Shown: positions 6,451-54,479 of the stretch, piece by piece
Layout: every line of letters starts with the position of its first letter
Position numbering within the stretch: position 1 is the stretch's first letter
Origin: a virus
Reading direction: 5' to 3' (one strand)
Length of the DNA stretch: 64,000 bases
Virus record (IMG/VR): IMGVR_UViG_3300045974_000067
Location: 5,714-69,713 of that record
Notes under the pieces: generated by a model
What the model saw: only the letters and a program-made list of their open reading frames with translations
What the model was told of the DNA's origin: nothing
Databases searched by the model: none
Program-made: the position numbers and the translations under genes

Positions 6451-6466
6451 TCATTAATTTAACGGG
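6451..6466 (-). promoter_or_regulatory. Putative phage RNAP promoter, class A (minus strand CCCGTTAAATTAATGA)
   Basis: Exact intergenic repeat of the 15-mer also at 19828, 48756 and 53960; precedes the SSB-DNA polymerase operon. Confidence 0.75.
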
Positions 6467-10148: not shown

Positions 10149-10184
10149 CCAACTACTAACACCCCGAAGGATATTAGTAGTTGG
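10149..10184 (-). terminator. Long RNA hairpin with C(UUCG)G loop (terminator or RNase III-type site)
   Basis: Minus strand CCAACUACUAAUAUCC-UUCG-GGGUGUUAGUAGUUGG, fully paired with G-U. Confidence 0.7.
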
Positions 10185-10190
10185 TATATT

Positions 10191-10971: not shown

Positions 10972-10992
10972 TATAAGATACCATTATTTGCG
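10972..10992 (-). promoter_or_regulatory. Putative phage RNAP promoter, class B (minus CGCAAATAATGGTATCTTATA)
   Basis: 21-mer repeated at 11613, 51962, 53880 (near-identical) and 53055, 58586 (degenerate); followed by RBS. Confidence 0.75.
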
Positions 10993-16363: not shown

Positions 16364-16382
16364 AATACACCTTTTTAGAAAT

Positions 16383-16408
16383 GGAGGATCACGGAGGAGT
16401 AATCCTCC
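16383..16408 (-). terminator. Intergenic hairpin
   Basis: GGAGGAUUAC/GUGAUCCUCC stem followed by AUUUCU. Confidence 0.55.
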
Positions 16409-16416
16409 TCTCTAAC

Positions 16417-39035: not shown

Positions 39036-39329
39036 CGATTTGTTAAACAGAATTCGTTAGATTCTGTCAATTTACTACAAAGCAAATATAGTTCATTTAA
39101 GTTTCCTATATTTGCTTTGTATAAATTCTGCATATTCCTATGCAGTCCAGACTATATCATCATCCCTAAGGATGTCGGGCGCTTCCACTGGACTCCCAGT
39201 GTACTCCTTTCGGATAGTCGTTGCACCTTACTGTTTTCACAGTCTTGGCTCAGGATTGACCGTTCTGGTTTTTCCCTGAGTTCACCCGATTGTCATTTAG
39301 ACATTACTGTCTAAAGCCTCTAATAAATA
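39036..39329 (-). ncRNA. Group I self-splicing intron, ORF-less, 294 nt
   Basis: P1: exon CCUU pairs with IGS GAGG (U-G at splice site); P7 AACGACUAU (39214-39222); S element GAUGAUAUAGUCUGG; P9 hairpins; terminal G; removal restores KQQNMVTL-YGAG in frame. Boundary could shift by 1 nt (Phe instead of Leu). Confidence 0.9.
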
Positions 39330-42300
39330 AAGGTCACCATGTTCTGCTGTTTGGCAGCTTTACGTAAATCTTTCTCAGTAAGTCCTAACTTTTGATTTAA
39401 TTTAATAAATCTAGGATCATTAAAAGTAGCATTAGCAATTTCATCGTATAGACGCTTCTTTTGGTCAGTAGGTACTACATTACTTAGGCTAGCTAACTGC
39501 TTATTTTTAGTAGTTAAAGCAATAATCTGTGCGCCACTACTAGAAGCATCTTGCTCAAGAGCAATATTAATACGATAGTTAGCAAGTCTACCCAGGCTTG
39601 CGGCACTGTAATCCCCTCCTAAGAATTCGTCTATTTTAGCTGTTTCTAATGCAAGTCTTAATAACTTTCCTTGTTCTTCTCCATCAATTTGTGCAAGAAG
39701 CTTATTCTCCAAGATAAATCGTATATCATTAGGTTTAGCTCTACGAATAGCATTACCAATAGCAATAAGATCTTTACGATGATCCATTGCTATTTGTTGT
39801 CTACCTAGAATAGATAATGAATTATGGCTACCTTCTAAAGCATCAGATAGTCCACCTATAAATCCACCTATTTGGTCTTGTAGATTATAAAAACCTAATT
39901 CACTAAAAGGCTTAGCTTGTGCAGTATTAAGAAATGGTCTGAATGTTTCACCTGATTGTGGCCCTATAAAGCCACGCTCGTATATACGGCCACGATGATC
40001 AATAAAAGGAGTATTACTAAATGACATATCTTTTTCACGTAGCCAGGACATAGCCTTAAGACGTTCATATGCATCTCCTCTTTCAACCATGTATTGTCTG
40101 TATATATTTAGATCATTATAATATTGTGCTTTACCTTTATCATCTTGAAAAGTAATTAATTTATTTATAAAGTCATGAAATTCAGGATCTACTTTATATT
40201 GTGCTTGTGAAGCCCAATTAAGAGCATCAGTCATATTCTTGTCGATAAGTTCTACAGGTAAGTCATTAAAGCTAGAAGTTGAAGTAATAGGTATACGAGT
40301 GTCTGTAAGTCCAAATATACCATCATCTATAAAATATGTCTTATAGCCTTCTTTAACTAATAATCTATTCTTATCTGTAGTAACACCTACACGTAAGCCT
40401 ACTTCTACTTTCCGTGTGAGTCTTGCATAATTTTGTATTCTAGGATCAGTTATCCTAAGATTAACACTAAAAGTATCATAGTAAGGGCCGAAGTATTGTC
40501 CACTCATACGACTCTTCATACGTCTTTTCTGTACACCAAAAGTCTCTAGCTCATAGAAACCTTTGTCTTTAGCATCATCTAACAACTTGACACCTAAAGT
40601 ATACCATTCATTCCTACTACCTCGATAGTTAGCAAGATTATATAAGTCACGTCCTAATGCTACAGCAAGTTGATCTCTATCAGGACTATCTGCTAATGAG
40701 AGTCTCTTAGCAAACTTTAAATAAAAATCTTTTAGATTCTGGTCTGTGAGTCTTATCTTTAATTTAACGGGTATCTTGTAATCTAAAATATTACGAAGCT
40801 GATTAGCTATTTTAGGTAAAGTTTTATCTTCCCATTTGTTTACAGCTTTAATATTAGCAATAAATGTATCATGTAGTTCTTGTAATTGTACAGGTCCAAG
40901 AACAGGATCAATATAATTAGCTTGTTTTAATTTAAATAGTAGATTAGCATCTTTACGTAACTGTGTTTCCATATAATCTGAAACATTCATTACATCAAAC
41001 TTAATCTGACCATTTAAAACAGCTTTTAAATTAGTCCATGCTTCATCATTTTCTCTAAATCTTCCAAATGTTATTCTTAAGTTATCTGCTATAGCAGCTC
41101 TTTCATTAATACTCATTGTATCTGCTAAGTCATTTACAAACTTAGTAATAAATTCTTTATCTTTTTGTTTAAGAACTATACTCTCATTAACTAATCTAAG
41201 ATTATTATTAAGTACACTAGGATTAGGTGCAAACATCCTAGTATCTTCATAACGACTAGTAATAGGATTGAACTTTAAGTTAGCTTCAGTAGGTGGTGTA
41301 TTTAGCACACGCGTCTTAGCAGCTTTCTTAGTACCTATTAAATTACCACGATAGTTTGTTAATGATAAAGTACCATCAAGTTCTTGTGTTTGCAATAAGT
41401 AGTATTGTTTAAGAGCAGCAGTCATTTCTGCATCACCAATAATTTCATCTGGTCTAGCAGCACCTAACTTAAGTGTATCTAACTTATCTTTAGCAAAAGC
41501 AAATCTACGAGTATCACCAGGTAAACTACCAAAGTCACTAGTAGTCATTTGATTAAGTTGTTTAATTCCTACATTAGCACCTGATGGTGTTATAAATTTA
41601 TCTAGTTGTAATTGACCACTTTGAAATTTCTGTAATCTATTAAGATCGCCAATATGCTTTATTTGTACTTCTTGTGGTTGTCTAAGTAGCCAGTCATTAT
41701 AGCTTTCTTTTAATGGTGATTGTCCATCATAAAAGGCTATTTCTTTATCAGTAAGTCCTGCAAGATTCCTTTTGCGTATCTGAGCAATACCTTCATTAGT
41801 ACCTAATTGATCATAGGACTTAGTAATAGGTATAGTTGTAGAACGGCAATACCAATGAGCAGGTGGCAAGTGTGCAGTATCTCCGACAGGATAAATATGT
41901 CCATCTCTGCTTGCACATAATGGTGTTGTACGAGAGTCTAATACTGCTACATATTGATAGCCATTTAAAATTTTTTCATTAGCTTTATAAACTTGATGAT
42001 CTGCTTGAGCATATACTGAAGTCATAGATGTTACAGTTAAACCATTAGCTTGATTTTTAGTAATATTAAAAGTACTCGATACAGTTTTAGCAATAGAAGT
42101 CTCATTGAGACCATCTGCAATACCTTTACGTATAATAGCTTCAATACGTATTCTTTCATTCTTGCCTATACCTACCCAACCTTCTTGCAATACTACATTA
42201 TTATATAAAGGTTGCTTAAGTACTACATTCTCTGCAATGCTTCTTGGAGGTTGCTTAGTACGCCAAATATTACCAACAGCTTTATCAATATTGTTAGTTG

Positions 42301-47121: not shown

Positions 47122-47332
47122 AATGTTCTCCTACGAACTTCTTCTGATCATCCGGAAAATGTCACCCACAAAGCGTCTCTAAATAGACACCATTTTAAAA
47201 TTCTAAACAGTGACCTAAGAAACATCTCAAATTAAAATAACCAAAGATTAGTCTACATGATCACTTTCATTTACTTCAATAAATAAATCCTTTTAATTGA
47301 ATATATTAAAGAGACCAACTAAAAGTACATTT

Positions 47333-47806
47333 TTATTGACCTTCATTTATCTCAACACACAAATCCTTTAGTTCAACATGATGAGACTTTAAAGAAAATC
47401 TATACTTATACACGATATCTTCATCTATACACCAAAAACCTTGCAAATCCTTGGGTAATAAATATGTATAGTTAAACACTTCACCTTTTTGTAGCAAAGC
47501 ACTTGGTAAACTTATTGTAGCTTTTGTTTTCTTATTTATAAAGATGCCACTAATTGTTGCAATATTATCATTATTCTTTTTAAATTGTCGATTAACAACT
47601 AAGATAAGAGAATTATTAGTACGTTCTAAATGTAATTGTCCTGTAACTTCAGAATACGGTGGCTCTAGAGTTACACTATCTAGAATAATCATAAACACAA
47701 TAGACATAAACATAAATGTTATTACGCCTAAAGTAGTCACTAATAATTTAGTACGTTGTCTATACATATCTAACGATGACATCTGCTCGGTATACATAAG
47801 TAGCAC
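47333..47806 (-). CDS. Membrane protein (N-terminal TM)
   Basis: LLVTTLGVITFMFMSIVFMIIL hydrophobic helix. Confidence 0.6.
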   Translation of the reverse strand: MLLMYTEQMSSLDMYRQRTKLLVTTLGVITFMFMSIVFMIILDSVTLEPPYSEVTGQLHLERTNNSLILVVNRQFKKNNDNIATISGIFINKKTKATISLPSALLQKGEVFNYTYLLPKDLQGFWCIDEDIVYKYRFSLKSHHVELKDLCVEINEGQ

Positions 47807-47832
47807 CCCTTTAAGCTATTACAAGTCCATAA

Positions 47833-48372
47833 TCATTCTCCTTTTATATTAGCTTTAATGAAGAACCATATAGCTACACCAATCACTGCTAATGCAGCCC
47901 AAATGGTATTCTTTATTACAAAAGTTATTATTTCATTAAATCTAGTCTTTCTTTCATTAACTTCATGAATAACTTCTGTATGGTATTTTGCATGACTTAT
48001 TGGATCTTGATTTGGGAAAGCAGACATAACTTTCTCAGACAACTCTTTTACCAATATAAAGAGAGTATTCTTAATTATTTCAGCTTGACTTGTTATATGC
48101 TTTTCAAGCGTTCTATCAGACATATAGTTATTTAATTTTTGTATAATATCTTTAACATCTACTGTTAAGACTTTGTGGCTTTCATTCACACTGTCCAGTT
48201 TCGATACTGTATTTTTGATATCAGATATTAAAGATTTATATAATTCATTTTGTGATTCTAATTTAGTGTTTTGTGTTTCAATCTTATTATGCATTACTTC
48301 TAGTTGCTTTATAATGCCATTATACTCCTCTTTAATACGGCTAAAAGAGGTGTCTTCTTTTCTGACTACCAT
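47833..48372 (-). CDS. Coiled-coil protein with C-terminal TM helix
   Basis: AFPNQDP..H..YH motif, terminal TM; AGGAG RBS; first gene of late operon. Confidence 0.65.
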   Translation of the reverse strand: MVVRKEDTSFSRIKEEYNGIIKQLEVMHNKIETQNTKLESQNELYKSLISDIKNTVSKLDSVNESHKVLTVDVKDIIQKLNNYMSDRTLEKHITSQAEIIKNTLFILVKELSEKVMSAFPNQDPISHAKYHTEVIHEVNERKTRFNEIITFVIKNTIWAALAVIGVAIWFFIKANIKGE

Positions 48373-48419
48373 TGCTTCTCCTTTAGCTATACTAAAGATT
48401 CCTCTTATTTGTATTAATA

Positions 48420-48740
48420 ATCGTTATAAATAAATAATCATCAATACAATTAGTTATTTATAGATATTATAAAACTAACTATAAATTATTAATATTTATT
48501 ATATAATAAATAATCATTAATACATTATATACTTATAGATATTAATATTTATTATATAATAAACATTATCAATACTTAATATACTTATAGCTAGCTTTAT
48601 AACTACTCTATATAGCTACTCTTTAATAATACTCTTAATTATATATAATAATAATACCCATCTATACATGGTATACTTATAGCTAGCTTTATAGCTATAC
48701 TTATAAGTACTCTTATAGCTAGCTATATAGCTATACTAAG
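48420..48740. repeat. Extremely AT-rich repeat/palindrome region (possible origin or packaging site)
   Basis: TATTAATATTTATTATATAATAAA at 48487 and 48540; TATACTTATAGCTAGCTTTATA at 48580 and 48672; palindrome TATAGCTAGCTATA at 48714. Confidence 0.7.
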
Positions 48741-48751
48741 GGGGCGGACCA

Positions 48752-48777
48752 CTTATCATTAATTTAACGGGCTTGAG
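48752..48777 (-). promoter_or_regulatory. Putative phage RNAP promoter, class A (late operon)
   Basis: CTTATCATTAATTTAACGGGCTTGAG, immediately after strong terminator, heading the packaging/structural block. Confidence 0.8.
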
Positions 48778-48797
48778 GTAATGTGGAATAGTAGTTA

Positions 48798-48890
48798 AGA
48801 AAATAAAAGAAAAAATAAAAAAATAAATGCCACCCAACCTACTCCTTATAACACCCAATTAAGGGCATTATAAGAAGTAAGTTGGGTGGC
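48798..48890 (-). terminator. Strong terminator: 28-bp stem plus long U tract
   Basis: GCCACCCAACUUACUUCUUAUAAUGCCC-UUAAUU-GGGUGUUAUAAGGAGUAGGUUGGGUGGC then AUUUAUUUUUU. Confidence 0.85.
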
Positions 48891-48939
48891 TATCTTTAAA
48901 TTTTTATCTTATTAAAGTACACTAATAACTCTTATTTAA

Positions 48940-49203
48940 TTAAATTATATATTTTTTATCAGAACCATCTCTGGCTTTAATAACTACTGTATTCAAGTCG
49001 TGATCCCAAACAGCATAGAATCGACGTCCACTACGATCTTCAAACCAAGCAGAGCTAGCATACTGATCTTTATATTCACGCGGAACTAGATTAGTAATGA
49101 TACCTGCTTCGAGTAAAGCGTTTAGTGTATTAATTACTTGTACAGCTGATGTGGCATGATGCTCAGCTTTACTTATTACATGGTTATAGAACGATTTATC
49201 CAT
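48940..49203 (-). CDS. Hypothetical protein
   Basis: ORF track. Confidence 0.6.
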   Translation of the reverse strand: MDKSFYNHVISKAEHHATSAVQVINTLNALLEAGIITNLVPREYKDQYASSAWFEDRSGRRFYAVWDHDLNTVVIKARDGSDKKYII

Positions 49204-49204
49204 A

Positions 49205-49501
49205 TTAAGCGGCTTTCTTCTGATGACTCTTTTTACTCAAGATACTTGCAGCCTTTGTTGCACATGCATCAGAAACTAATGTTGGTTTTTCTACAATTTT
49301 TTCAGGAATAATATCATCAAAGATAGATACATAATTTTCAGTCTTTTTGAACTTATTATGTTGACTGACAAGGGCAGCAACTGCAAAAGTATCCCTAAAA
49401 TTTTGAATCTGAATTTGTGCTGCTTGAAGACTGGCCTTAGAACGACCACCCTTATAGCAAAGCTTCAACATATCATTTAGTGCTTTATCTGAGACTTTCA
49501 T
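49205..49501 (-). CDS. Hypothetical protein
   Basis: ORF track; AAGGAG RBS. Confidence 0.6.
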   Translation of the reverse strand: MKVSDKALNDMLKLCYKGGRSKASLQAAQIQIQNFRDTFAVAALVSQHNKFKKTENYVSIFDDIIPEKIVEKPTLVSDACATKAASILSKKSHQKKAA

Positions 49502-50156
49502 TTTTTAACTCCTTAAGTTGACGTTTGATTAAGATTAAACAACGTTGTGCTACAATTAACTCCTTAGAAAAAGATATAAAAGGAGCAAATCTATTTTTCT
49601 TTAGCGAATTTATTACATAAAAATCTGGAAGTGCTGCTGCAACTTTATCAGAAGCTTCTTTAGTTTTCTTTTTGTAGCAAGGTGTACAAATTAAATCCTT
49701 CTTATTTAATGCTGTTGAAAGAAGTTCATTACATACTGTACATTTAAAAAATCCTTTCTTTTTTAATTTGCGTATTGCTACCCTTTCATTTGTATACCTA
49801 GGATCTTTCCTAGGCCTTCTTGGAGATACAAATTCCTTATATCTATTTAATCTATATAGCCTTTCACAATCTTTACAATAATGTCTTGCATACGTATATT
49901 TAACTTCTTTTACACTACAAGTATAAGTATTAAATAAGTTAATTGGTTTTAATATTTTACATTCAAAGCATTCTTTTTCTTCAGGGATAGCCTTTCTAGG
50001 CTTCTTAGGATTTTTAGGTTTTTGGGCATTTTCTTTTTTAATGCATTCTTTGCATCTACATACATGCCCTGTTATGCTTCTTTTATTTTTATGATAATTT
50101 TCCCAGGTTTTTGTTTCACCACATTTTGAACATTTTTTATAACGTGTAATCTCCAT
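49485..50156 (-). CDS. Basic multi-Zn-finger protein (repeated CxxC pairs)
   Basis: CSKC, CKEC, CFEC, CKDC, CTVC, CTPC; no recognisable HNH core. Confidence 0.7.
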   Translation of the reverse strand: MEITRYKKCSKCGETKTWENYHKNKRSITGHVCRCKECIKKENAQKPKNPKKPRKAIPEEKECFECKILKPINLFNTYTCSVKEVKYTYARHYCKDCERLYRLNRYKEFVSPRRPRKDPRYTNERVAIRKLKKKGFFKCTVCNELLSTALNKKDLICTPCYKKKTKEASDKVAAALPDFYVINSLKKNRFAPFISFSKELIVAQRCLILIKRQLKELKNESLR

Positions 50157-50177
50157 AATTAATCCTTAAAATTTTAA

Positions 50178-50211
50178 GCCCTCCAACCATCCCGAAGGAT
50201 AGCTGGAGGGC
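50178..50211 (-). terminator. Hairpin with C(UUCG)G loop
   Basis: GCCCUCCAGCUAUCC-UUCG-GGAUGGUUGGAGGGC. Confidence 0.7.
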
Positions 50212-50383
50212 GATTTGATTAAGGCAAAGGTGTAACCATTACATTACCAGTATTATACAAGGTCTTCCATGCAACACGCGCAGACTCAATATCCTGACAG
50301 ACTCGCTGGTTATAGATTTGAGTTTGTGCACTAGTACGGTAAATAATTATGATCATGATAAGTCCTTATGAGTTTTGAAGCTT

Positions 50384-50608
50384 TTATCGAAATAGGCTGG
50401 AGTGTAATGTTACAATTTGAAGCTTAGTATCGTACTCGTCTATATGAGGGCTATACTTACCATTCCAAGCCTTTTTATTTTCGAGTACAATAACTTCTCT
50501 TTCATCTACAGCAATAATGTCATTATACCCGTCTTCATAACCGGGTATAGCTACGATTGCATCTTGTGGCATTTTAAGCAAGTGTGATATAAGCTCAAGG
50601 ACTTTCAT
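50384..50608 (-). CDS. Small conserved-type phage protein
   Basis: MKV.ELI..L...PQD..V...GYE.GY.D pattern. Confidence 0.7.
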   Translation of the reverse strand: MKVLELISHLLKMPQDAIVAIPGYEDGYNDIIAVDEREVIVLENKKAWNGKYSPHIDEYDTKLQIVTLHSSLFR

Positions 50609-50811
50609 AATTATAACCTTTATTATCCCCTAAATTAAAGAAGCACTCAATTATATACCACGGTTGAAACTCTACTACTTTGTAATCGTACTCATTCATT
50701 TAATGTCTCCTCATTAAATAATTACAATCAATACTGCAATAGTTAAATTAATCATAGTTACTACTTTATCAATAGTCTTCATAATAGTGTCCTTATTAAA
50801 AGATTGTAAAT

Positions 50812-51270
50812 TTGTCACATATTCCTGCTCTACAGTGCAGTTTTTGGAGGCATACCTAGAATATGCAGACGCTCATACCCATGTGACCTGCGGTTGTTGG
50901 ACGTCTTGTCTTAATGTCTTTCTCTAGGATTAATACATTCTCCATGCAACTAAGTATGTGGCCTCTGTCTACTATCGATTCTTACCCATACTAGGGCGGT
51001 GCTACCGATAGAATAACAACAGCATACTTAATTGCACAGGCAATGTACTAGCTAAGTCAGATCACACCAATATACATGGTAGTGAACCATCACTTCGAGT
51101 TACTTGCGTCTCGCCCATAACAAACGTTATGTAGGTGGACATGAAGCAGCATGTCTAATATCCACTCGTCTATCTGCCTATAGACTCCTGATAATCTTTG
51201 GTAGCTAACCAATATCATATCGCCAGGTGGCTGCTGGATTTCTGCTTGTCGTATTTGAAATACTCCATCT
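50812..51270 (-). ncRNA. Candidate large structured non-coding RNA (~460 nt), class unknown
   Basis: No ORF of 60 aa or more; about 10 helices and several loop-loop complementarities read by eye. Confidence 0.65.
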
Positions 51271-51275
51271 ACTAT

Positions 51276-51590
51276 TTAACCTTCTCCTCGATACAAACAA
51301 CGCTCGTATACTTCAACAGGAGAGTAACCACCATTTCCATATACAAGCTTTACAAGTCGTCCTGCACGTAATGTAAGATGCTCAATTAAAGCACCATGAT
51401 CTTTATTAACATAGTTCTTAATAATATAATCATAGGCTTCATTTGCTGTAAGATTATTTGCATACATTCTATTAATCTGTACAGTATAGTCATAAGCACT
51501 TGAACAGATATGTTGATGTACAGCTTCATCTGCATGACAAGAAAATACAATAAACATTGAAGCTAAAAGTCCAATTAAGTATTTGCACAT
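51276..51590 (-). CDS. Exported protein, paralog of 51603-51932
   Basis: Signal peptide; QH.C.SA..Y...NY...G...R...VY...P..VYE.C shared. Confidence 0.7.
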   Translation of the reverse strand: MCKYLIGLLASMFIVFSCHADEAVHQHICSSAYDYTVQINRMYANNLTANEAYDYIIKNYVNKDHGALIEHLTLRAGRLVKLVYGNGGYSPVEVYERCLYRGEG

Positions 51591-51602
51591 GATTAGTATC
51601 CT

Positions 51603-51932
51603 TTATAGTTTAAATTGCCAAGTACATAGTTCGTAAACTTGTTGTGGTGTAGCATTAGTTTCATATACATAATTACCAATTCGAGGTGCATGCTCAGACA
51701 TTACATCTACCATACGACCTTGCTCAAGTAGTGCATAATTATTAACTACATAATTTACAGCAAGGTCTAATGGAACATCTTTAGACTTAAGTTCTGAAAA
51801 TACTGTAGCATAGTTAGCAGCACTAATACACATATGCTGCGTATCTGCGTCTACGACATCAACTGGTGCTACTGGAGTCATTGCTGTTGAAACTACAGTA
51901 TACGAAATAAAGCCAATTAGAAATTCTAACAT
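51603..51932 (-). CDS. Exported protein, paralog of 51276-51590
   Basis: Hydrophobic N-terminus; same two-Cys pattern; GGAG RBS. Confidence 0.7.
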   Translation of the reverse strand: MLEFLIGFISYTVVSTAMTPVAPVDVVDADTQHMCISAANYATVFSELKSKDVPLDLAVNYVVNNYALLEQGRMVDVMSEHAPRIGNYVYETNATPQQVYELCTWQFKL

Positions 51933-51961
51933 AATAGTCTCCGTAATAGTTTAGTATTTCG

Positions 51962-51982
51962 TATAAGATACTCTTATTTGCG
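51962..51982 (-). promoter_or_regulatory. Putative phage RNAP promoter, class B
   Basis: TATAAGATACTCTTATTTGCG, 1 mismatch to the 11613 copy. Confidence 0.8.
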
Positions 51983-52113
51983 CTATTGTCCAAGCACACG
52001 AACACAGTAAAAGAAACTGTTAGTTTGTCTACATTCAGTCCAAAGAGAATACTCAAAATAAACTACTAACCCTATTGCAAATAAAATAATAGTTACAGGT
52101 AGTATATAGTCTT

Positions 52114-52392
52114 TCATTTAACAACTTTCAAATGAGCCTCTTTGACAAGCTTAACAGAGTCAGTTGCTTCAATGAAGTATGTAGAACCAGTACGCATATT
52201 AACAATTAATGGTTTTCCAGCATTAAGACTATCTGATACAGTCTTTGAATTAAGGAGAAAATTAGCAGCTTTAACTCGCATATAAATATCACCATCATTA
52301 CGTCGAGTAAATATTTGCATTGTTTGTAAATCGCTTGCATTAATTCTTCCATCATCTACATCTTTACTGGTTTCAATTATTAATATGCTCAT
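52114..52392 (-). CDS. Hypothetical protein
   Basis: ORF track; AAGGA RBS. Confidence 0.65.
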   Translation of the reverse strand: MSILIIETSKDVDDGRINASDLQTMQIFTRRNDGDIYMRVKAANFLLNSKTVSDSLNAGKPLIVNMRTGSTYFIEATDSVKLVKEAHLKVVK

Positions 52393-52410
52393 GATTATTT
52401 ATCCTTTAAA

Positions 52411-52605
52411 TTACTTATCCCAGTTAATGTCAGGTTTAATATTAGGTATATTACGAACTTCCATAAACTCTTTTATAGCTTCTACAAGAGGTGCAGCATT
52501 ATGCTTATGTGACAATACTAATTTTCTCTTACGTGTAGTTAAGAATGCAGCAAAGTCATAGATTGCACCTAATGCTATTTGATAATCCTCTACTTTAGCT
52601 CTCAT
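52411..52605 (-). CDS. Hypothetical protein
   Basis: ORF track. Confidence 0.6.
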   Translation of the reverse strand: MRAKVEDYQIALGAIYDFAAFLTTRKRKLVLSHKHNAAPLVEAIKEFMEVRNIPNIKPDINWDK

Positions 52606-52892
52606 ACTTTTACTGCCTTAATGTGTCTAGTTTGAATTTCATGTTGAAAACTTTCCCAATCATTTCTATCTTCATAACTCCCAACAAGTAGTAAACGAAT
52701 ACCTGTTACACCTTTTAATTGGTATGGATAGTTTACAATTATTGTTTGTGCTCTTGATAATTCTCGAGATCGCATATATTCATAAGCTTCTTCATAATTT
52801 CCGCCTAATATGTAATTCATTTCTTCCTCATTTGAGTAATTAAATATACTTTTTAAAGTATACTTATTGCAATTTAATTTAATTAAATACAC
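52602..52892 (-). CDS. Hypothetical protein (start uncertain, possibly 52821)
   Basis: ORF track; internal GAGG RBS before MNYIL. Confidence 0.55.
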   Translation of the reverse strand: MYLIKLNCNKYTLKSIFNYSNEEEMNYILGGNYEEAYEYMRSRELSRAQTIIVNYPYQLKGVTGIRLLLVGSYEDRNDWESFQHEIQTRHIKAVKV

Positions 52893-52916
52893 TCCTCTTG
52901 AATGTACTTAATTAAT

Positions 52917-53053
52917 AACCCTACTCATAGAGTAGGGCTAGTAATCCGTGCCTCTTTTGAAAGTCTAAGCAATTGTGCGCACAATCGGTTAGGCTGTTTA
53001 AGGCCATCACGGTAGCCTTATTGGGTGGGCGGGTAGTTTACTAGCGCGAACGC
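52917..53053 (-). ncRNA. Candidate small pseudoknotted RNA with own promoter and 3' hairpin
   Basis: Starts at predicted +1 G of class B motif; GCG-UUCG-CGC hairpin; closing stem GCUAGUAA/UUACUAGC; loop CCGUG complementary to CACGG; 3' hairpin AGCCCUACUC/GAGUAGGGUU. Confidence 0.6.
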
Positions 53054-53054
53054 T

Positions 53055-53075
53055 TATAAGATACCCCGTTTAAAA
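53055..53075 (-). promoter_or_regulatory. Class B promoter, degenerate copy
   Basis: TATAAGATACCC core intact, distal half divergent. Confidence 0.55.
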
Positions 53076-53273
53076 TAAGCTTCTTAGGCTTTATTCCCAA
53101 AATCGTGTACGTTTATATAGATACTATATAGGCCGAGGAGTTAGCCATACCTATGGGCAGAAACGTACAAACCCTGATGAACCTCTAATAGTCTTTGATA
53201 ATAGAATTCGGTAATAGTATAGTAGAGCCATGCTCACTATAATAGAGGACAGGAGCATAGCTCGACTGTTCTA

Positions 53274-53834: not shown

Positions 53835-53879
53835 TTAAAATATCCTCAATAAAATGAAGGAATACATCATTGTATTCCT

Positions 53880-53900
53880 TATAAGATACCCTTATTTACG
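53880..53900 (-). promoter_or_regulatory. Putative phage RNAP promoter, class B
   Basis: TATAAGATACCCTTATTTACG; predicted +1 G (53878) opens hairpin GGAAUACA-AUGA-UGUAUUCC. Confidence 0.8.
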
Positions 53901-53957
53901 CAAAGGGATTTCGCAAGGTCTTCTTGGCTGACCTTGATAGCCTACTAACCAACGTGA

Positions 53958-53975
53958 TATCATTAATTTAACGGG
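53958..53975 (-). promoter_or_regulatory. Putative phage RNAP promoter, class A
   Basis: TATCATTAATTTAACGGG exact copy. Confidence 0.75.
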
Positions 53976-54089
53976 CTAGCCGACCTGCCAGGTTGCCATA
54001 TAGCGCAACGAAACAGGCCGACTGACACGCCACCCTAGACCAACCTACGGCCTCACAGCAGCCAAACGGCGACTACTGTGGCTAATCAA

Positions 54090-54479
54090 CTAAGCAAATA
54101 AAACATCCATTTTATGAGCTTGAGCAGATTGTAGCAGTTTTATTAGTAACACAAGTCGATCTTCTACGTACTCAGGTGATCTTCCAAACTCAATGAAATT
54201 ACCACTAGTTACAGTATTCTTTTGCAATTTTTTAGACAAAGATATTTTGTTCAGTATTGTAATAGCTCTCCTCAATACTATATCTACTTTTAGACAATCC
54301 CAACTACCGTATAATTCGTTGGCTTCTTTATGGCATCCTAACATTTCTAAAAAGTCTTTGGCATTTACATTTGACATATTTAATGAATAGAAGCCATCTG
54401 CAGGTACTGTTTCAAATTCACCTGGAGCGTATTCCTCTATTACTGTTGGTGCACCTACTATACTAAATGTTACAGACAT
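54090..54479 (-). CDS. Hypothetical protein
   Basis: LNMSNVNA...L..LG pattern; ORF track. Confidence 0.65.
   Translation of the reverse strand: MSVTFSIVGAPTVIEEYAPGEFETVPADGFYSLNMSNVNAKDFLEMLGCHKEANELYGSWDCLKVDIVLRRAITILNKISLSKKLQKNTVTSGNFIEFGRSPEYVEDRLVLLIKLLQSAQAHKMDVLFA

What the first reader, a model, noticed from the sequence alone, without database searches (positions are those of the whole stretch)
50812..51270. ~460-nt ORF-free element folding into an ornate multi-pseudoknot RNA
Seen (plus coordinates), nested helices: 50945-58/51023-36 extended by 50934-39/51042-47, inner 50972-77/51006-11, and 50814-20/50881-87. Seen, hairpins: 50850-66, 51062-85, 51116-31, 51138-55, 51168-85 and 51189-217. 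Several hairpin loops are complementary to distant segments: loop CUGCUU (51144-49) with AAGCAG (51242-47); loop UCUAGG (50855-60) with CCUAGA (50923-28); loop AGGCA (51175-79) with UGCCU (51038-42 or 50848-52); plus AGACGC/GCGUCU (51106-11/50867-72) and GUUGUU/AACAAC. The genome is otherwise gene-dense. I see no group I/II intron, tmRNA or RNase P signature. Known: phages encode large structured RNAs of unknown function (ROOL, GOLLD). Inference: a large ncRNA, possibly a new class, transcribed from the class B promoter at 51962.
Basis: partly seen in the sequence, partly recalled or inferred. Interest (0 to 1): 0.85.

Follow-up and report, generated by a model that had tools for sequence, protein, structure and literature searches.

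The report
One long RNA hairpin, not ornate
The gene-free 460 bases of this uncultured phage hold one real, very stable 121-base hairpin on the transcribed strand, probably an ordinary message-processing or stabilising signal, and nothing supports a large ornate RNA.

Summary
The stretch 50812-51275 is real non-coding DNA. It has no convincing ORF, no alternative code opens it, its codon usage is unlike the neighbouring genes, and its GC (0.41) is above the window's 0.36. All genes lie on the minus strand, so any RNA is minus-sense.

Only one is beyond chance: a 121-nt, 45-bp irregular hairpin at 50930-51050. On the minus strand it folds at -49.5 kcal/mol, z -7.2 (0 of 200 shuffles). On the plus strand z is -2.5.

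The other three quarters fold like shuffled sequence (z -0.06 to -1.55). The proposed loop-to-distant-segment "pseudoknot" pairings are no more frequent than in shuffles. The whole-element z of -3.15 sits inside the genome's own background.

There is no Rfam family, tRNA/tmRNA or reverse transcriptase. No homologue turned up in 80 related loci, 40 related phage records or five collection scans, so covariation cannot be tested.

A near-identical wetland strain keeps the hairpin's outer stems and swaps its tip for a shorter block that still pairs.

Best reading: a cis-acting mRNA hairpin (RNase III-type processing or stabiliser) in an untranslated spacer. A new large ncRNA class is unlikely (about 0.1).

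The parts
50812..51275 (-). ORF-poor, untranslated stretch between the 104-aa gene (stop at 51276-51278) and the small downstream ORFs. GC is 0.41-0.425.
   Evidence: ORF list. No alternative stop-codon code opens it. Codon log-likelihood of its ORFs is -0.10 to -0.62, against +0.13 to +0.58 for ten neighbouring small genes. GC profile. Single copy in the 69.7-kb genome.
50930..51050 (-). Long irregular hairpin of 121 nt and 45 base pairs: stems of 9, 16+3, 5, 8 and 4 bp separated by small internal loops. This is the only structure beyond chance.
   Evidence: Minus strand -49.5 kcal/mol, z -7.21, 0 of 200 shuffles, MFE equals centroid. Plus strand -29.8 kcal/mol, z -2.49. The minus-strand fold has 9 G.U pairs against 1 C.A juxtaposition. 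Inverted repeat I1. Ranked 16th of 3195 120-nt windows by GC-corrected MFE.
50961..51027 (-). Apical block of the hairpin. It is replaced by a block 27 nt shorter in the related strain of run X2, while both flanks are identical.
   Evidence: read laying record 5: all 9 listed substitutions and 11 deletions (27 letters) fall in 50961-51027. The rebuilt X2 hairpin (94 nt) keeps the outer stems and folds at -33.6 kcal/mol. Shuffling the apical block reaches the observed energy in 1 of 500 shuffles (window) and 38 of 500 (X2).
51116..51131 (-). Small 6-bp hairpin with a 4-nt loop. Its inner 13 nt are replaced by 15 unrelated letters in run X2.
   Evidence: Perfect hairpin. Overlapping loose ends of X2 records 5 and 6 at 51117 and 51131. 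That the new letters can again form a 4-bp, 4-nt-loop hairpin is my reading by eye, not a computation.
51138..51185 (-). Two further perfect 6-bp hairpins (51138-51155 and 51168-51185). Their number is not above the genome background.
   Evidence: 139 of 1096 windows have at least 3 such hairpins. Domain z is -1.18 on the minus strand and -2.32 on the plus strand.
51962..51972 (-). It is the nearest candidate start of the transcript that would run into the element.
   Evidence: GTATCTTATA occurs 6 times on the minus strand. The exact 11-mer occurs 5 times and this copy has 1 mismatch. There is no copy inside the element. Promoter function is inferred, not shown.
51276..51932 (-). Two paralogous small genes (104 aa at 51276-51590, 109 aa at 51603-51932) upstream of the element.
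   Evidence: BLASTP of p104 against p109 gives E 1.5e-13. The 104-aa protein has no relative among 5.8 billion proteins. No PHROG match.
50781..50810 (-). Sigma-70-like promoter match (TTTACA, 18 nt, TATTAT; 10 of 12) at the 3' edge of the element, ahead of a 22-aa ORF (50714-50782) that has an AGGA ribosome-binding site.
   Evidence: best of 11 matches, with 9.5 +/- 3.0 expected by chance, so weak..

Best explanation
The 460 bases are an untranslated part of the sense (minus-strand) transcript. That transcript most likely starts at the promoter-like motif at 51972 and runs through the two small paralogous genes. The stretch carries one real structure, a 121-nt, 45-bp rod-like hairpin at 50930-51050. 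I read this hairpin as a cis-acting mRNA element: a double-stranded processing site of the RNase III type and/or a 3' stabiliser. It would separate the upstream two-gene message from the downstream small-ORF unit. The remaining ~340 nt are spacer with a few short hairpins of no demonstrable significance.

Shown: non-coding, strand-specific, an exceptional hairpin, outer stems kept in a variant strain, and no known family.

Inferred: that it is transcribed, that it is cleaved or stabilising, and which enzyme acts on it.
For: Non-coding. The X2 block replacements change length by +2 and -27 letters.

Only one domain is structured. The hairpin has z -7.21 on the minus strand (0 of 200 shuffles) and -2.49 on the plus strand. 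The three other domains give -1.18, -1.55 and -0.06, and the sliding scan agrees.

Sense-strand RNA is favoured. There are 9 G.U pairs against 1 C.A juxtaposition in 45 pairs. Energies are -49.5 against -29.8 kcal/mol. A covariance model of the hairpin scores 145.8 bits on the minus strand and 33.1 on the plus strand.

Shape fits a double-strand-specific nuclease. Stems of 9 and 16(+3) bp stack across a 2x2 internal loop, giving more than two helical turns.

It is not an intrinsic terminator. The scan found 0 terminator-like sites in 50300-52300. The genome's real terminator-like hairpins are perfect stems with UUCG-type loops followed by U runs, and this hairpin lacks those features.

Variant strain X2 has flanks 50931-50960 and 51028-51117 with no listed difference. 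Its apical block is replaced and still pairs.

All genes are on the minus strand, and a promoter-like motif lies upstream with none inside the element.
Against: There is no RNA evidence at all. No covariation test is possible, because no homologue was found in any search.

The hairpin lies 225 nt after the upstream stop codon, not directly after it as a 3' stabiliser usually would.

The one point substitution in a paired stem position of X2 (51027) makes an A.C mismatch on the minus strand and a G.U pair on the plus strand. That goes against minus-strand selection.

The X2 data are single contigs at depth 2-4, and warns these may contain errors. The X2 apical block is only marginally better than shuffles (38 of 500).

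The G.U excess is partly expected, because the minus strand is G-rich and the fold was optimised on that strand. GC is raised over the whole 460 nt, which a single hairpin does not explain. RNase III recognition rules of the unknown host cannot be tested.
Confidence: 0.4

Rival explanations
1. Non-functional leftover. The stretch would be debris of illegitimate recombination or a decayed insertion in a hypervariable 'small-gene' region. The hairpin would be a palindromic mini-insertion (MITE-like inverted repeat) with no RNA role.
For: Among terL relatives, only the genes bordering this region recur in any number of loci (the 186-aa gene in 16 loci, the gene next to terL in 61). No ORF between 48940 and 52892 has a relative in the 80 loci, apart from one weak hit for 52114-52392 (E 9e-05, one locus). 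The adjacent 104-aa gene is an ORFan. The element has no homologue anywhere. Three quarters of it fold like shuffled sequence. Block replacements between near-identical strains fit recombinational patchwork.
Against: Non-coding DNA elsewhere in this AT-rich genome can be very AT-rich (48373-48939, GC 0.23), whereas this stretch is at 0.41. The 9:1 excess of G.U over C.A in the hairpin points to a single-stranded sense-strand structure rather than a DNA palindrome. Both strains keep a pairing tip. I saw no target-site duplication when reading the flanks; this was by eye.
Confidence: 0.24
2. A stand-alone small RNA of about 120 nt. The hairpin would be released from the longer transcript and act in trans, for example as a decoy for a host double-strand RNA-binding or defence protein, or as an antisense regulator.
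For: The hairpin is a self-contained, well-defined fold (MFE frequency 0.12, centroid equal to MFE). Its tip varies between strains while the stems stay constant.
Against: No promoter motif lies directly upstream and no terminator follows. The phage genome holds no complementary target of 15 nt or more (blastn-short; longest non-self matches 14 nt). No Rfam family matches, 6S and Y-like RNAs included.
Confidence: 0.12
3. One reading: the whole ~460 nt folds into one large, ornate, multi-pseudoknot ncRNA of a new class, comparable in scale to ROOL or GOLLD.
For: The gap is ORF-free and GC-raised over its whole length in a dense genome. The whole-element minus-strand z is -3.15 against -0.57 for the plus strand. 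Perfect hairpins of 5 bp or more run at 19.4 per kb against 8.5 per kb in the window. Two hairpin tips are replaced in a near-identical strain with pairing retained.
Against: Domains outside the hairpin are indistinguishable from shuffles. The pseudoknot complementarities are at or below chance. The whole-element z lies within the genome's own background. There is no homologue, so no covariation. The stretch has no promoter or terminator of its own. Energy models do not score tertiary structure, so this reading is weakened rather than excluded.
Confidence: 0.1
4. Coding after all: one or more micro-ORFs, or a recently broken gene. For example, the 61-codon open stretch that continues in frame past the TAA of the 104-aa gene.
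For: The frame that continues the upstream gene stays open for 61 codons. A 17-codon ORF with an AAGG motif starts at 51268. The neighbourhood contains real ORFs of 22-34 aa. One library protein (P0122) matched the 61-aa stretch at E 8.2e-08.
Against: P0122 is a protein of about nine sigma-70-region-4-like repeats, so the same weak similarity is summed over repeats. The best single alignment is 26.9 bits, with E 5e-05 for that one pair only, and no other protein out of 1.84 billion matched. Codon log-likelihoods are -0.10 to -0.62, against +0.13 to +0.58 for ten neighbouring small genes. tblastx found nothing in 88 related loci or in the phage's own genome, and nothing matched the two paralogues. 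The paralogue ends at the same place as the 104-aa gene. The X2 replacements are not multiples of three taken together.
Confidence: 0.07
5. A DNA-level signal. Candidates are a single-strand initiation or origin hairpin, or a hairpin promoter for the phage's own MuF-fused single-subunit RNA polymerase, by analogy with the N4 virion polymerase (the N4 facts are recalled).
For: The phage encodes a MuF-domain protein and a T7-type RNA polymerase domain in adjacent ORFs, with a group I intron match between them. Long strand-specific hairpins are typical of single-strand origins (recalled).
Against: There are no iterons or direct repeats beyond 10-16-nt chance pairs. The candidate promoter motifs of this genome are short repeated sequences that are absent from the element. 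The hairpin is far longer than the 5-7-bp N4-type promoters (recalled).
Confidence: 0.07

Closest known systems
RNase III processing hairpins in the polycistronic mRNAs of phage T7 and lambda (recalled; the paper search gave listings only)
   Same: An irregular double-stranded stem of more than two helical turns with small internal loops. It lies on the sense strand, in an untranslated intercistronic position, in a phage with its own RNA polymerase.
   Different: It is longer (121 nt, 45 bp) than the classical ~50-60-nt sites. It lies 225 nt from the upstream stop codon. Cleavage is untested and the host is unknown. The tip varies between strains.
Intrinsic terminator hairpins of this same genome (e.g. 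48830-48896, 50170-50210, 10150-10190)
   Same: Very stable sense-strand hairpins in intergenic DNA.
   Different: Those are perfect GC-rich stems with tetraloops followed by U runs. This one is imperfect and multi-looped, and no U run follows it.
ROOL and GOLLD large ornate RNAs of phages and prophages (Rfam families; bioRxiv 10.1101/2024.12.08.627333 and PMC5737381, seen only as search listings with the start of the abstract)
   Same: Phage-borne and several hundred nucleotides long without an ORF.
   Different: Their covariance models do not match. There is no multi-domain fold beyond chance. No family of homologues exists and no tRNA lies within 50000-52000.
Group I introns of the same phage (39128-39339)
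   Same: A structured, GC-raised, ORF-less RNA in the same genome.
   Different: The Rfam Intron_gpI model finds the resident intron at 95.8 bits but finds nothing in the element, even at E up to 10. The element shares no sequence blocks with the rest of the genome. It does not interrupt a gene.

Membership tests
RNase III-type mRNA processing/stability hairpin | Quasi-continuous double-stranded RNA of about 20 bp or more on the transcribed strand | tested here: met
   Stems of 9 and 16(+3) bp stack across a 2x2 loop; 45 pairs in all on the minus strand.
RNase III-type mRNA processing/stability hairpin | Staggered cleavage in the stem in vivo or in vitro, dependent on RNase III | not testable with these tools
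   No RNA run holds the sequence, and the host is unknown.
Intrinsic (Rho-independent) terminator | GC-rich stem directly followed by a U tract | tested here: not met
   0 terminator-like sites in 50300-52300. The 3' flank of the hairpin is not U-rich.
ROOL / GOLLD / other Rfam large ncRNAs (OLE, HEARO, raiA, 6S, RNase P, tmRNA) | Match to the family covariance model | tested here: not met
   No gathering-level hit in the element. At E up to 10 only two chance matches appeared, to unrelated families. ARAGORN found no tRNA or tmRNA in 50000-52000.
Group I intron | Match to Intron_gpI (P3-P9 core) and insertion within a gene | tested here: not met
   The model detects the resident intron at 39128-39339 (95.8 bits), which serves as a positive control, but detects nothing in 50500-51600. 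The flanking ORFs are complete and unrelated.
Retron msr-msd or DGR template | An adjacent or genome-encoded reverse transcriptase; for a DGR, a second near-copy | tested here: not met
   PF00078 has no match in the 69.7-kb genome, while the control search matched in 3 of 14 control genomes. The element is single-copy.
   No homologue to test. On thermodynamics, only one of four domains exceeds shuffles.

The most novel reading that the evidence does not exclude
The whole 460 nt, or at least the hairpin together with the neighbouring run of small hairpins, is a lineage-specific functional RNA whose hairpin tips are exchangeable cassettes. Two tips are swapped between strains that are otherwise about 99% identical, and pairing is kept. 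On this reading the tips carry specificity, for example as a decoy or guide against a variable host factor, rather than serving as passive mRNA punctuation.
Probability: 0.1. Interest if true: 0.6.

Novelty: new member of a known kind. Interest (0 to 1): 0.25.

Why it matters
If the hairpin is an RNase III-type or stabiliser element, it is ordinary phage mRNA punctuation. Its main use would be in annotating transcription units of an uncultured freshwater phage group that carries a MuF-fused RNA polymerase.

The wider value of this check is negative. A list of 5-6-nt loop complementarities in 460 nt is expected by chance, and a whole-region z near -3 is normal for this genome. Findings of this type therefore need domain-wise shuffles and a genome background before they are called ornate RNAs.

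The tip-swapping between near-identical strains is the one feature worth a second look if more alleles become available.

Tried and rejected
Homologue hunting, all negative:
- blastn against 50,697 phage records.
- Neighbour proteins against phage records. Only the 186-aa protein hit one record, at 47% identity.
- The search for related loci with the 104-aa, 74-aa and terL proteins in viral contigs, and with the 104-aa protein in metagenome contigs.
- A terL alignment gave 80 related loci. In these, blastn returned only 14-35-nt chance hits (best E 0.12) and nhmmer returned nothing.
- Whole records of 40 relatives were searched; 5 of the 45 handles given were not held. By DNA, 14 of 40 had 14-35-nt matches, best E 0.016, none syntenic or extended. 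By a covariance model of the hairpin, 0 of 40 matched. The model found itself in the window, which served as the positive control.
- Five exact-pattern scans found nothing: two in viral contigs, one in metagenome contigs and two in genome contigs.
- The scan's earlier findings, by sequence and by relatives, gave nothing.

Sequencing runs: no RNA holder is listed. Parts of the stretch have no cover in X2 (50749-50930) and X3 (50608-51186). With contigs at depth 2-4, this says nothing either way.

Pseudogene and coding tests:
- tblastx against the related loci found only E 0.58 hits. Against the phage's own genome the best non-self hit was E 0.052. That call's filter hid hits within 700 nt, so the paralogues were re-tested separately and nothing was found.
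- Alternative stop-codon codes were tried.
- The 61-aa open stretch was searched against 1.84 billion representatives and gave a single hit, to a repeat protein, which I judged spurious.

Rejected ideas: retron or DGR (no reverse transcriptase); tRNA or tmRNA; a third decayed paralogue; iterons or an origin.

Correction: an earlier count said 4 of 20 background windows were at or below -2.96. The output shows 3 of 20.

Papers: searches were read as listings and abstract starts only. No paper was opened and no supplement was seen. The statements about T7, lambda and N4 are recalled.

Full report
Setting.
The window is bases 5714-69713 of a 69.7-kb IMG/VR virus record that CheckV rates as complete. 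Of its 44 ORFs of 150 aa or more, 39 lie on the minus strand. The five on the plus strand all sit inside larger minus-strand ORFs.

The phage has a terminase and portal module just downstream. A MuF-domain ORF and a T7-type RNA polymerase-domain ORF lie on either side of a group I intron match. DNA ligase and DHH-type genes lie upstream.

Two short motifs recur on the minus strand ahead of genes. GGTATCTTATA occurs exactly at 10982, 11623, 53065, 53890 and 58596, and with one mismatch at 51972. CCGTTAAATTAAT occurs exactly at 6465, 19842, 48770 and 53974. They are plausible phage promoters, but that is inference. Neither occurs inside the element.

The stretch is non-coding.
- The longest minus-strand ORFs inside it are 42, 31, 29 and 26 aa.
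- Only a 17-codon and a 12-codon ORF have any Shine-Dalgarno-like motif. The real small genes next door have AGGA or AGGAG motifs.
- Reading TGA, TAG or TAA singly as sense leaves the longest open run at 99 codons or fewer on either strand.
- A codon log-likelihood trained on the long genes gives +0.13 to +0.58 for ten neighbouring small genes and -0.10 to -0.62 for the element's ORFs.
- The frame that continues the upstream 104-aa gene stays open for 61 codons. Its paralogue, the 109-aa gene (BLASTP E 1.5e-13), ends at the same point, so this is not a lost C-terminus.
- A search of that 61-aa stretch against 1.84 billion representatives gave one hit (E 8.2e-08). The hit is a protein of about nine sigma-70-region-4-like repeats. 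The score is the same weak similarity summed over repeats: the best single alignment is 26.9 bits, with E 5e-05 for that one pair only. I count it as spurious.
- tblastx found nothing in the related loci or in the phage's own genome, and nothing matched the paralogues.

Checking the observation.
The question is whether they exceed chance.
- Complementary k-mer pairs in the element number 111, 23, 4 and 1 for k = 5 to 8. Shuffle means are 119.5, 31.4, 7.8 and 2.0. The loop-to-distant-segment 'pseudoknots' are what any 460-nt sequence offers.
- The element has three perfect hairpins of 6 bp or more, and 139 of 1096 windows of the same size in this genome have at least three. Hairpins of 5 bp or more are about twice as dense as the window average (19.4 against 8.5 per kb). 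That enrichment is mild.
- The whole element folds at -136.8 kcal/mol on the minus strand, z -3.15. On the plus strand it folds at -114.6 kcal/mol, z -0.57.
- Twenty arbitrary 464-nt minus-strand windows of this genome gave z from +1.80 to -3.67, with mean about -1.25. Three of 20 were at or below -2.9. The whole-element value is therefore unremarkable here.

What is really there.
A 120-nt sliding scan and domain-wise folding with 200 shuffles show a single outlier, 50930-51050 on the minus strand. It folds at -49.5 kcal/mol with z -7.21 (0 of 200 shuffles), and the MFE equals the centroid. The same bases on the plus strand give -29.8 kcal/mol and z -2.49.

The three other domains give minus-strand z of -1.18, -1.55 and -0.06. 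Their plus-strand values are -2.32, -2.18 and +0.14.

The hairpin has 45 pairs in stems of 9, 16+3, 5, 8 and 4 bp. Nine pairs are G.U, against one C.A juxtaposition. This explains the strand asymmetry and argues for a sense-strand RNA rather than a DNA palindrome. The argument is softened by two facts: the minus strand is G-rich, and the fold was optimised on that strand.

In a genome-wide scan it ranks 16th of 3195 windows, which is about the eighth or ninth distinct locus. The stronger loci are the group I intron and a set of terminator-like hairpins, which are perfect stems with tetraloops followed by U runs. This hairpin is imperfect and has no U run, and the terminator scan found none in 50300-52300.

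Relatives.
The region is an orphan.
- The closest terL relatives are 69% identical or less.
- In 80 related loci, none of the element's immediate neighbours has a relative. The genes bordering the region recur most widely: the 186-aa gene in 16 loci and the gene next to terL in 61. A few others recur in one to three loci. Apart from one weak hit for 52114-52392, no ORF between 48940 and 52892 has a relative.
- The adjacent 104-aa protein has no relative among 5.8 billion proteins.
- The element has no match by blastn or nhmmer, in 40 whole related records, by a covariance model of the hairpin (0 of 40 records; it found itself in the window), or in five exact-pattern collection scans.
Covariation, the decisive test, is therefore not possible with what I could reach.

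Strain variation.
Two wetland runs hold fragments of a strain about 97-99% identical in the flanking genes.

In X2, one contig covers 50931-51117. All of its listed differences (9 substitutions and 27 deleted letters) fall in 50961-51027, the apical part of the hairpin. The regions 50931-60 and 51028-117 are unchanged.

Rebuilt by script, the X2 hairpin is 94 nt. It keeps the 9-bp and lower stems and folds at -33.6 kcal/mol. Shuffling only the apical block reaches the observed energy in 1 of 500 trials for the window and 38 of 500 for X2.

A second replacement swaps the inner 13 nt of the small hairpin at 51116-51131 for 15 unrelated letters. By my reading they again form a short hairpin (loose ends).

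These two tip swaps in an otherwise near-identical background are the best hint of selection on structure. They rest on single contigs at depth 2-4. One stem substitution (51027) breaks a minus-strand pair and would be a G.U pair on the plus strand.

Mechanism.
My best reading is that the stretch is untranslated mRNA. The hairpin, a rod of more than two helical turns, would serve as an RNase III-type processing site and/or a stabiliser. It would sit between the two-gene unit upstream and the small-ORF unit downstream. That downstream unit has a sigma-70-like promoter match at 50810-50781, and that match is weak evidence.

The steps shown are: non-coding, strand-specific, an exceptional hairpin, and a variable tip. 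Transcription, cleavage and the enzyme are inferred. I put this reading at 0.4.

The rivals are:
- a non-functional recombinational leftover (0.24);
- a released small RNA (0.12);
- hidden coding (0.07);
- a DNA-level signal (0.07).

Comparison with known families.
The element is not a member of any Rfam family. It is not a tRNA or tmRNA, not a group I intron (the model finds the resident intron but not this stretch), and not a retron or DGR part (no reverse transcriptase). It resembles phage intercistronic RNase III hairpins in shape and position (recalled knowledge; one search gave listings only). ROOL and GOLLD (listings only) share only the phage setting and the absence of an ORF.

Verdict.
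Interest is low to moderate (0.25): this is one more orphan structured hairpin in a phage message. The tip-swapping between strains is the single feature that could make it more than that.

Noticed in passing
window 48781-48940 (minus strand): The most stable local structure of the whole window is here: -57.5 kcal/mol in 120 nt at GC 0.28. It is a near-perfect hairpin of about 35 bp followed by a long U run. It lies just upstream of an exact copy of the CCGTTAAATTAAT motif at 48770, inside a 567-nt AT-rich ORF-free gap. It looks like a strong terminator followed by a promoter.
   Followed up: partly
window 10982, 11623, 51972, 53065, 53890, 58596 and 6465, 19842, 48770, 53974 (minus strand): Two repeated short motifs sit ahead of genes: GGTATCTTATA, and CCGTTAAATTAAT (10 matches with up to 2 mismatches, against 3.0 expected). 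They are candidate promoter classes for the phage's or the host's polymerase. The first contains a short palindrome (TAT-CTT-ATA), which recalls the hairpin promoters of N4-type virion polymerases; the N4 comparison is recalled and untested.
   Followed up: partly
window 52800-53080 and 53900-54090 (minus strand): Two further GC-raised ORF-free gaps (52893-53236 at GC 0.41, 53835-54089 at GC 0.45) hold very stable sense-strand hairpins. One is -54.8 kcal/mol at 53961-54080.
   Followed up: no
window 50170-50210, 10150-10190, 16380-16410 (minus strand): Terminator-like hairpins: perfect stems, followed by U-rich tracts. Those at 50170-50210 and 10150-10190 have UUCG tetraloops. The simple terminator scan did not report the one at 50170-50210, which lay inside its scanned range.
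   Followed up: no
window 51276-51932 (minus strand): Two tandem paralogous ORFan genes (104 and 109 aa, E 1.5e-13 to each other) have hydrophobic N-termini that look like signal peptides; this was read by eye. They have no PHROG match, and the 104-aa protein has no relative among 5.8 billion proteins.
   Followed up: partly
window 47122-53273 compared with loci L002-L081: The segment between the conserved 186-aa gene and the gene next to terL is hypervariable among relatives. Its length ranges from about 2 to 8.7 kb and its gene content is almost wholly different.
   Followed up: partly
window 49485-50156 (minus strand): A 223-aa Cys-rich protein has weak PHROG matches to a Lar-like restriction alleviation protein (E 2.6e-07), HNH endonuclease and endonuclease VII families. 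It may be a free-standing nuclease about 650 nt downstream of the element.
   Followed up: no
The Rfam gathering scan of the whole window reported only the intron at 39128-39339, so the second one, if real, falls below the Intron_gpI threshold.
   Followed up: no
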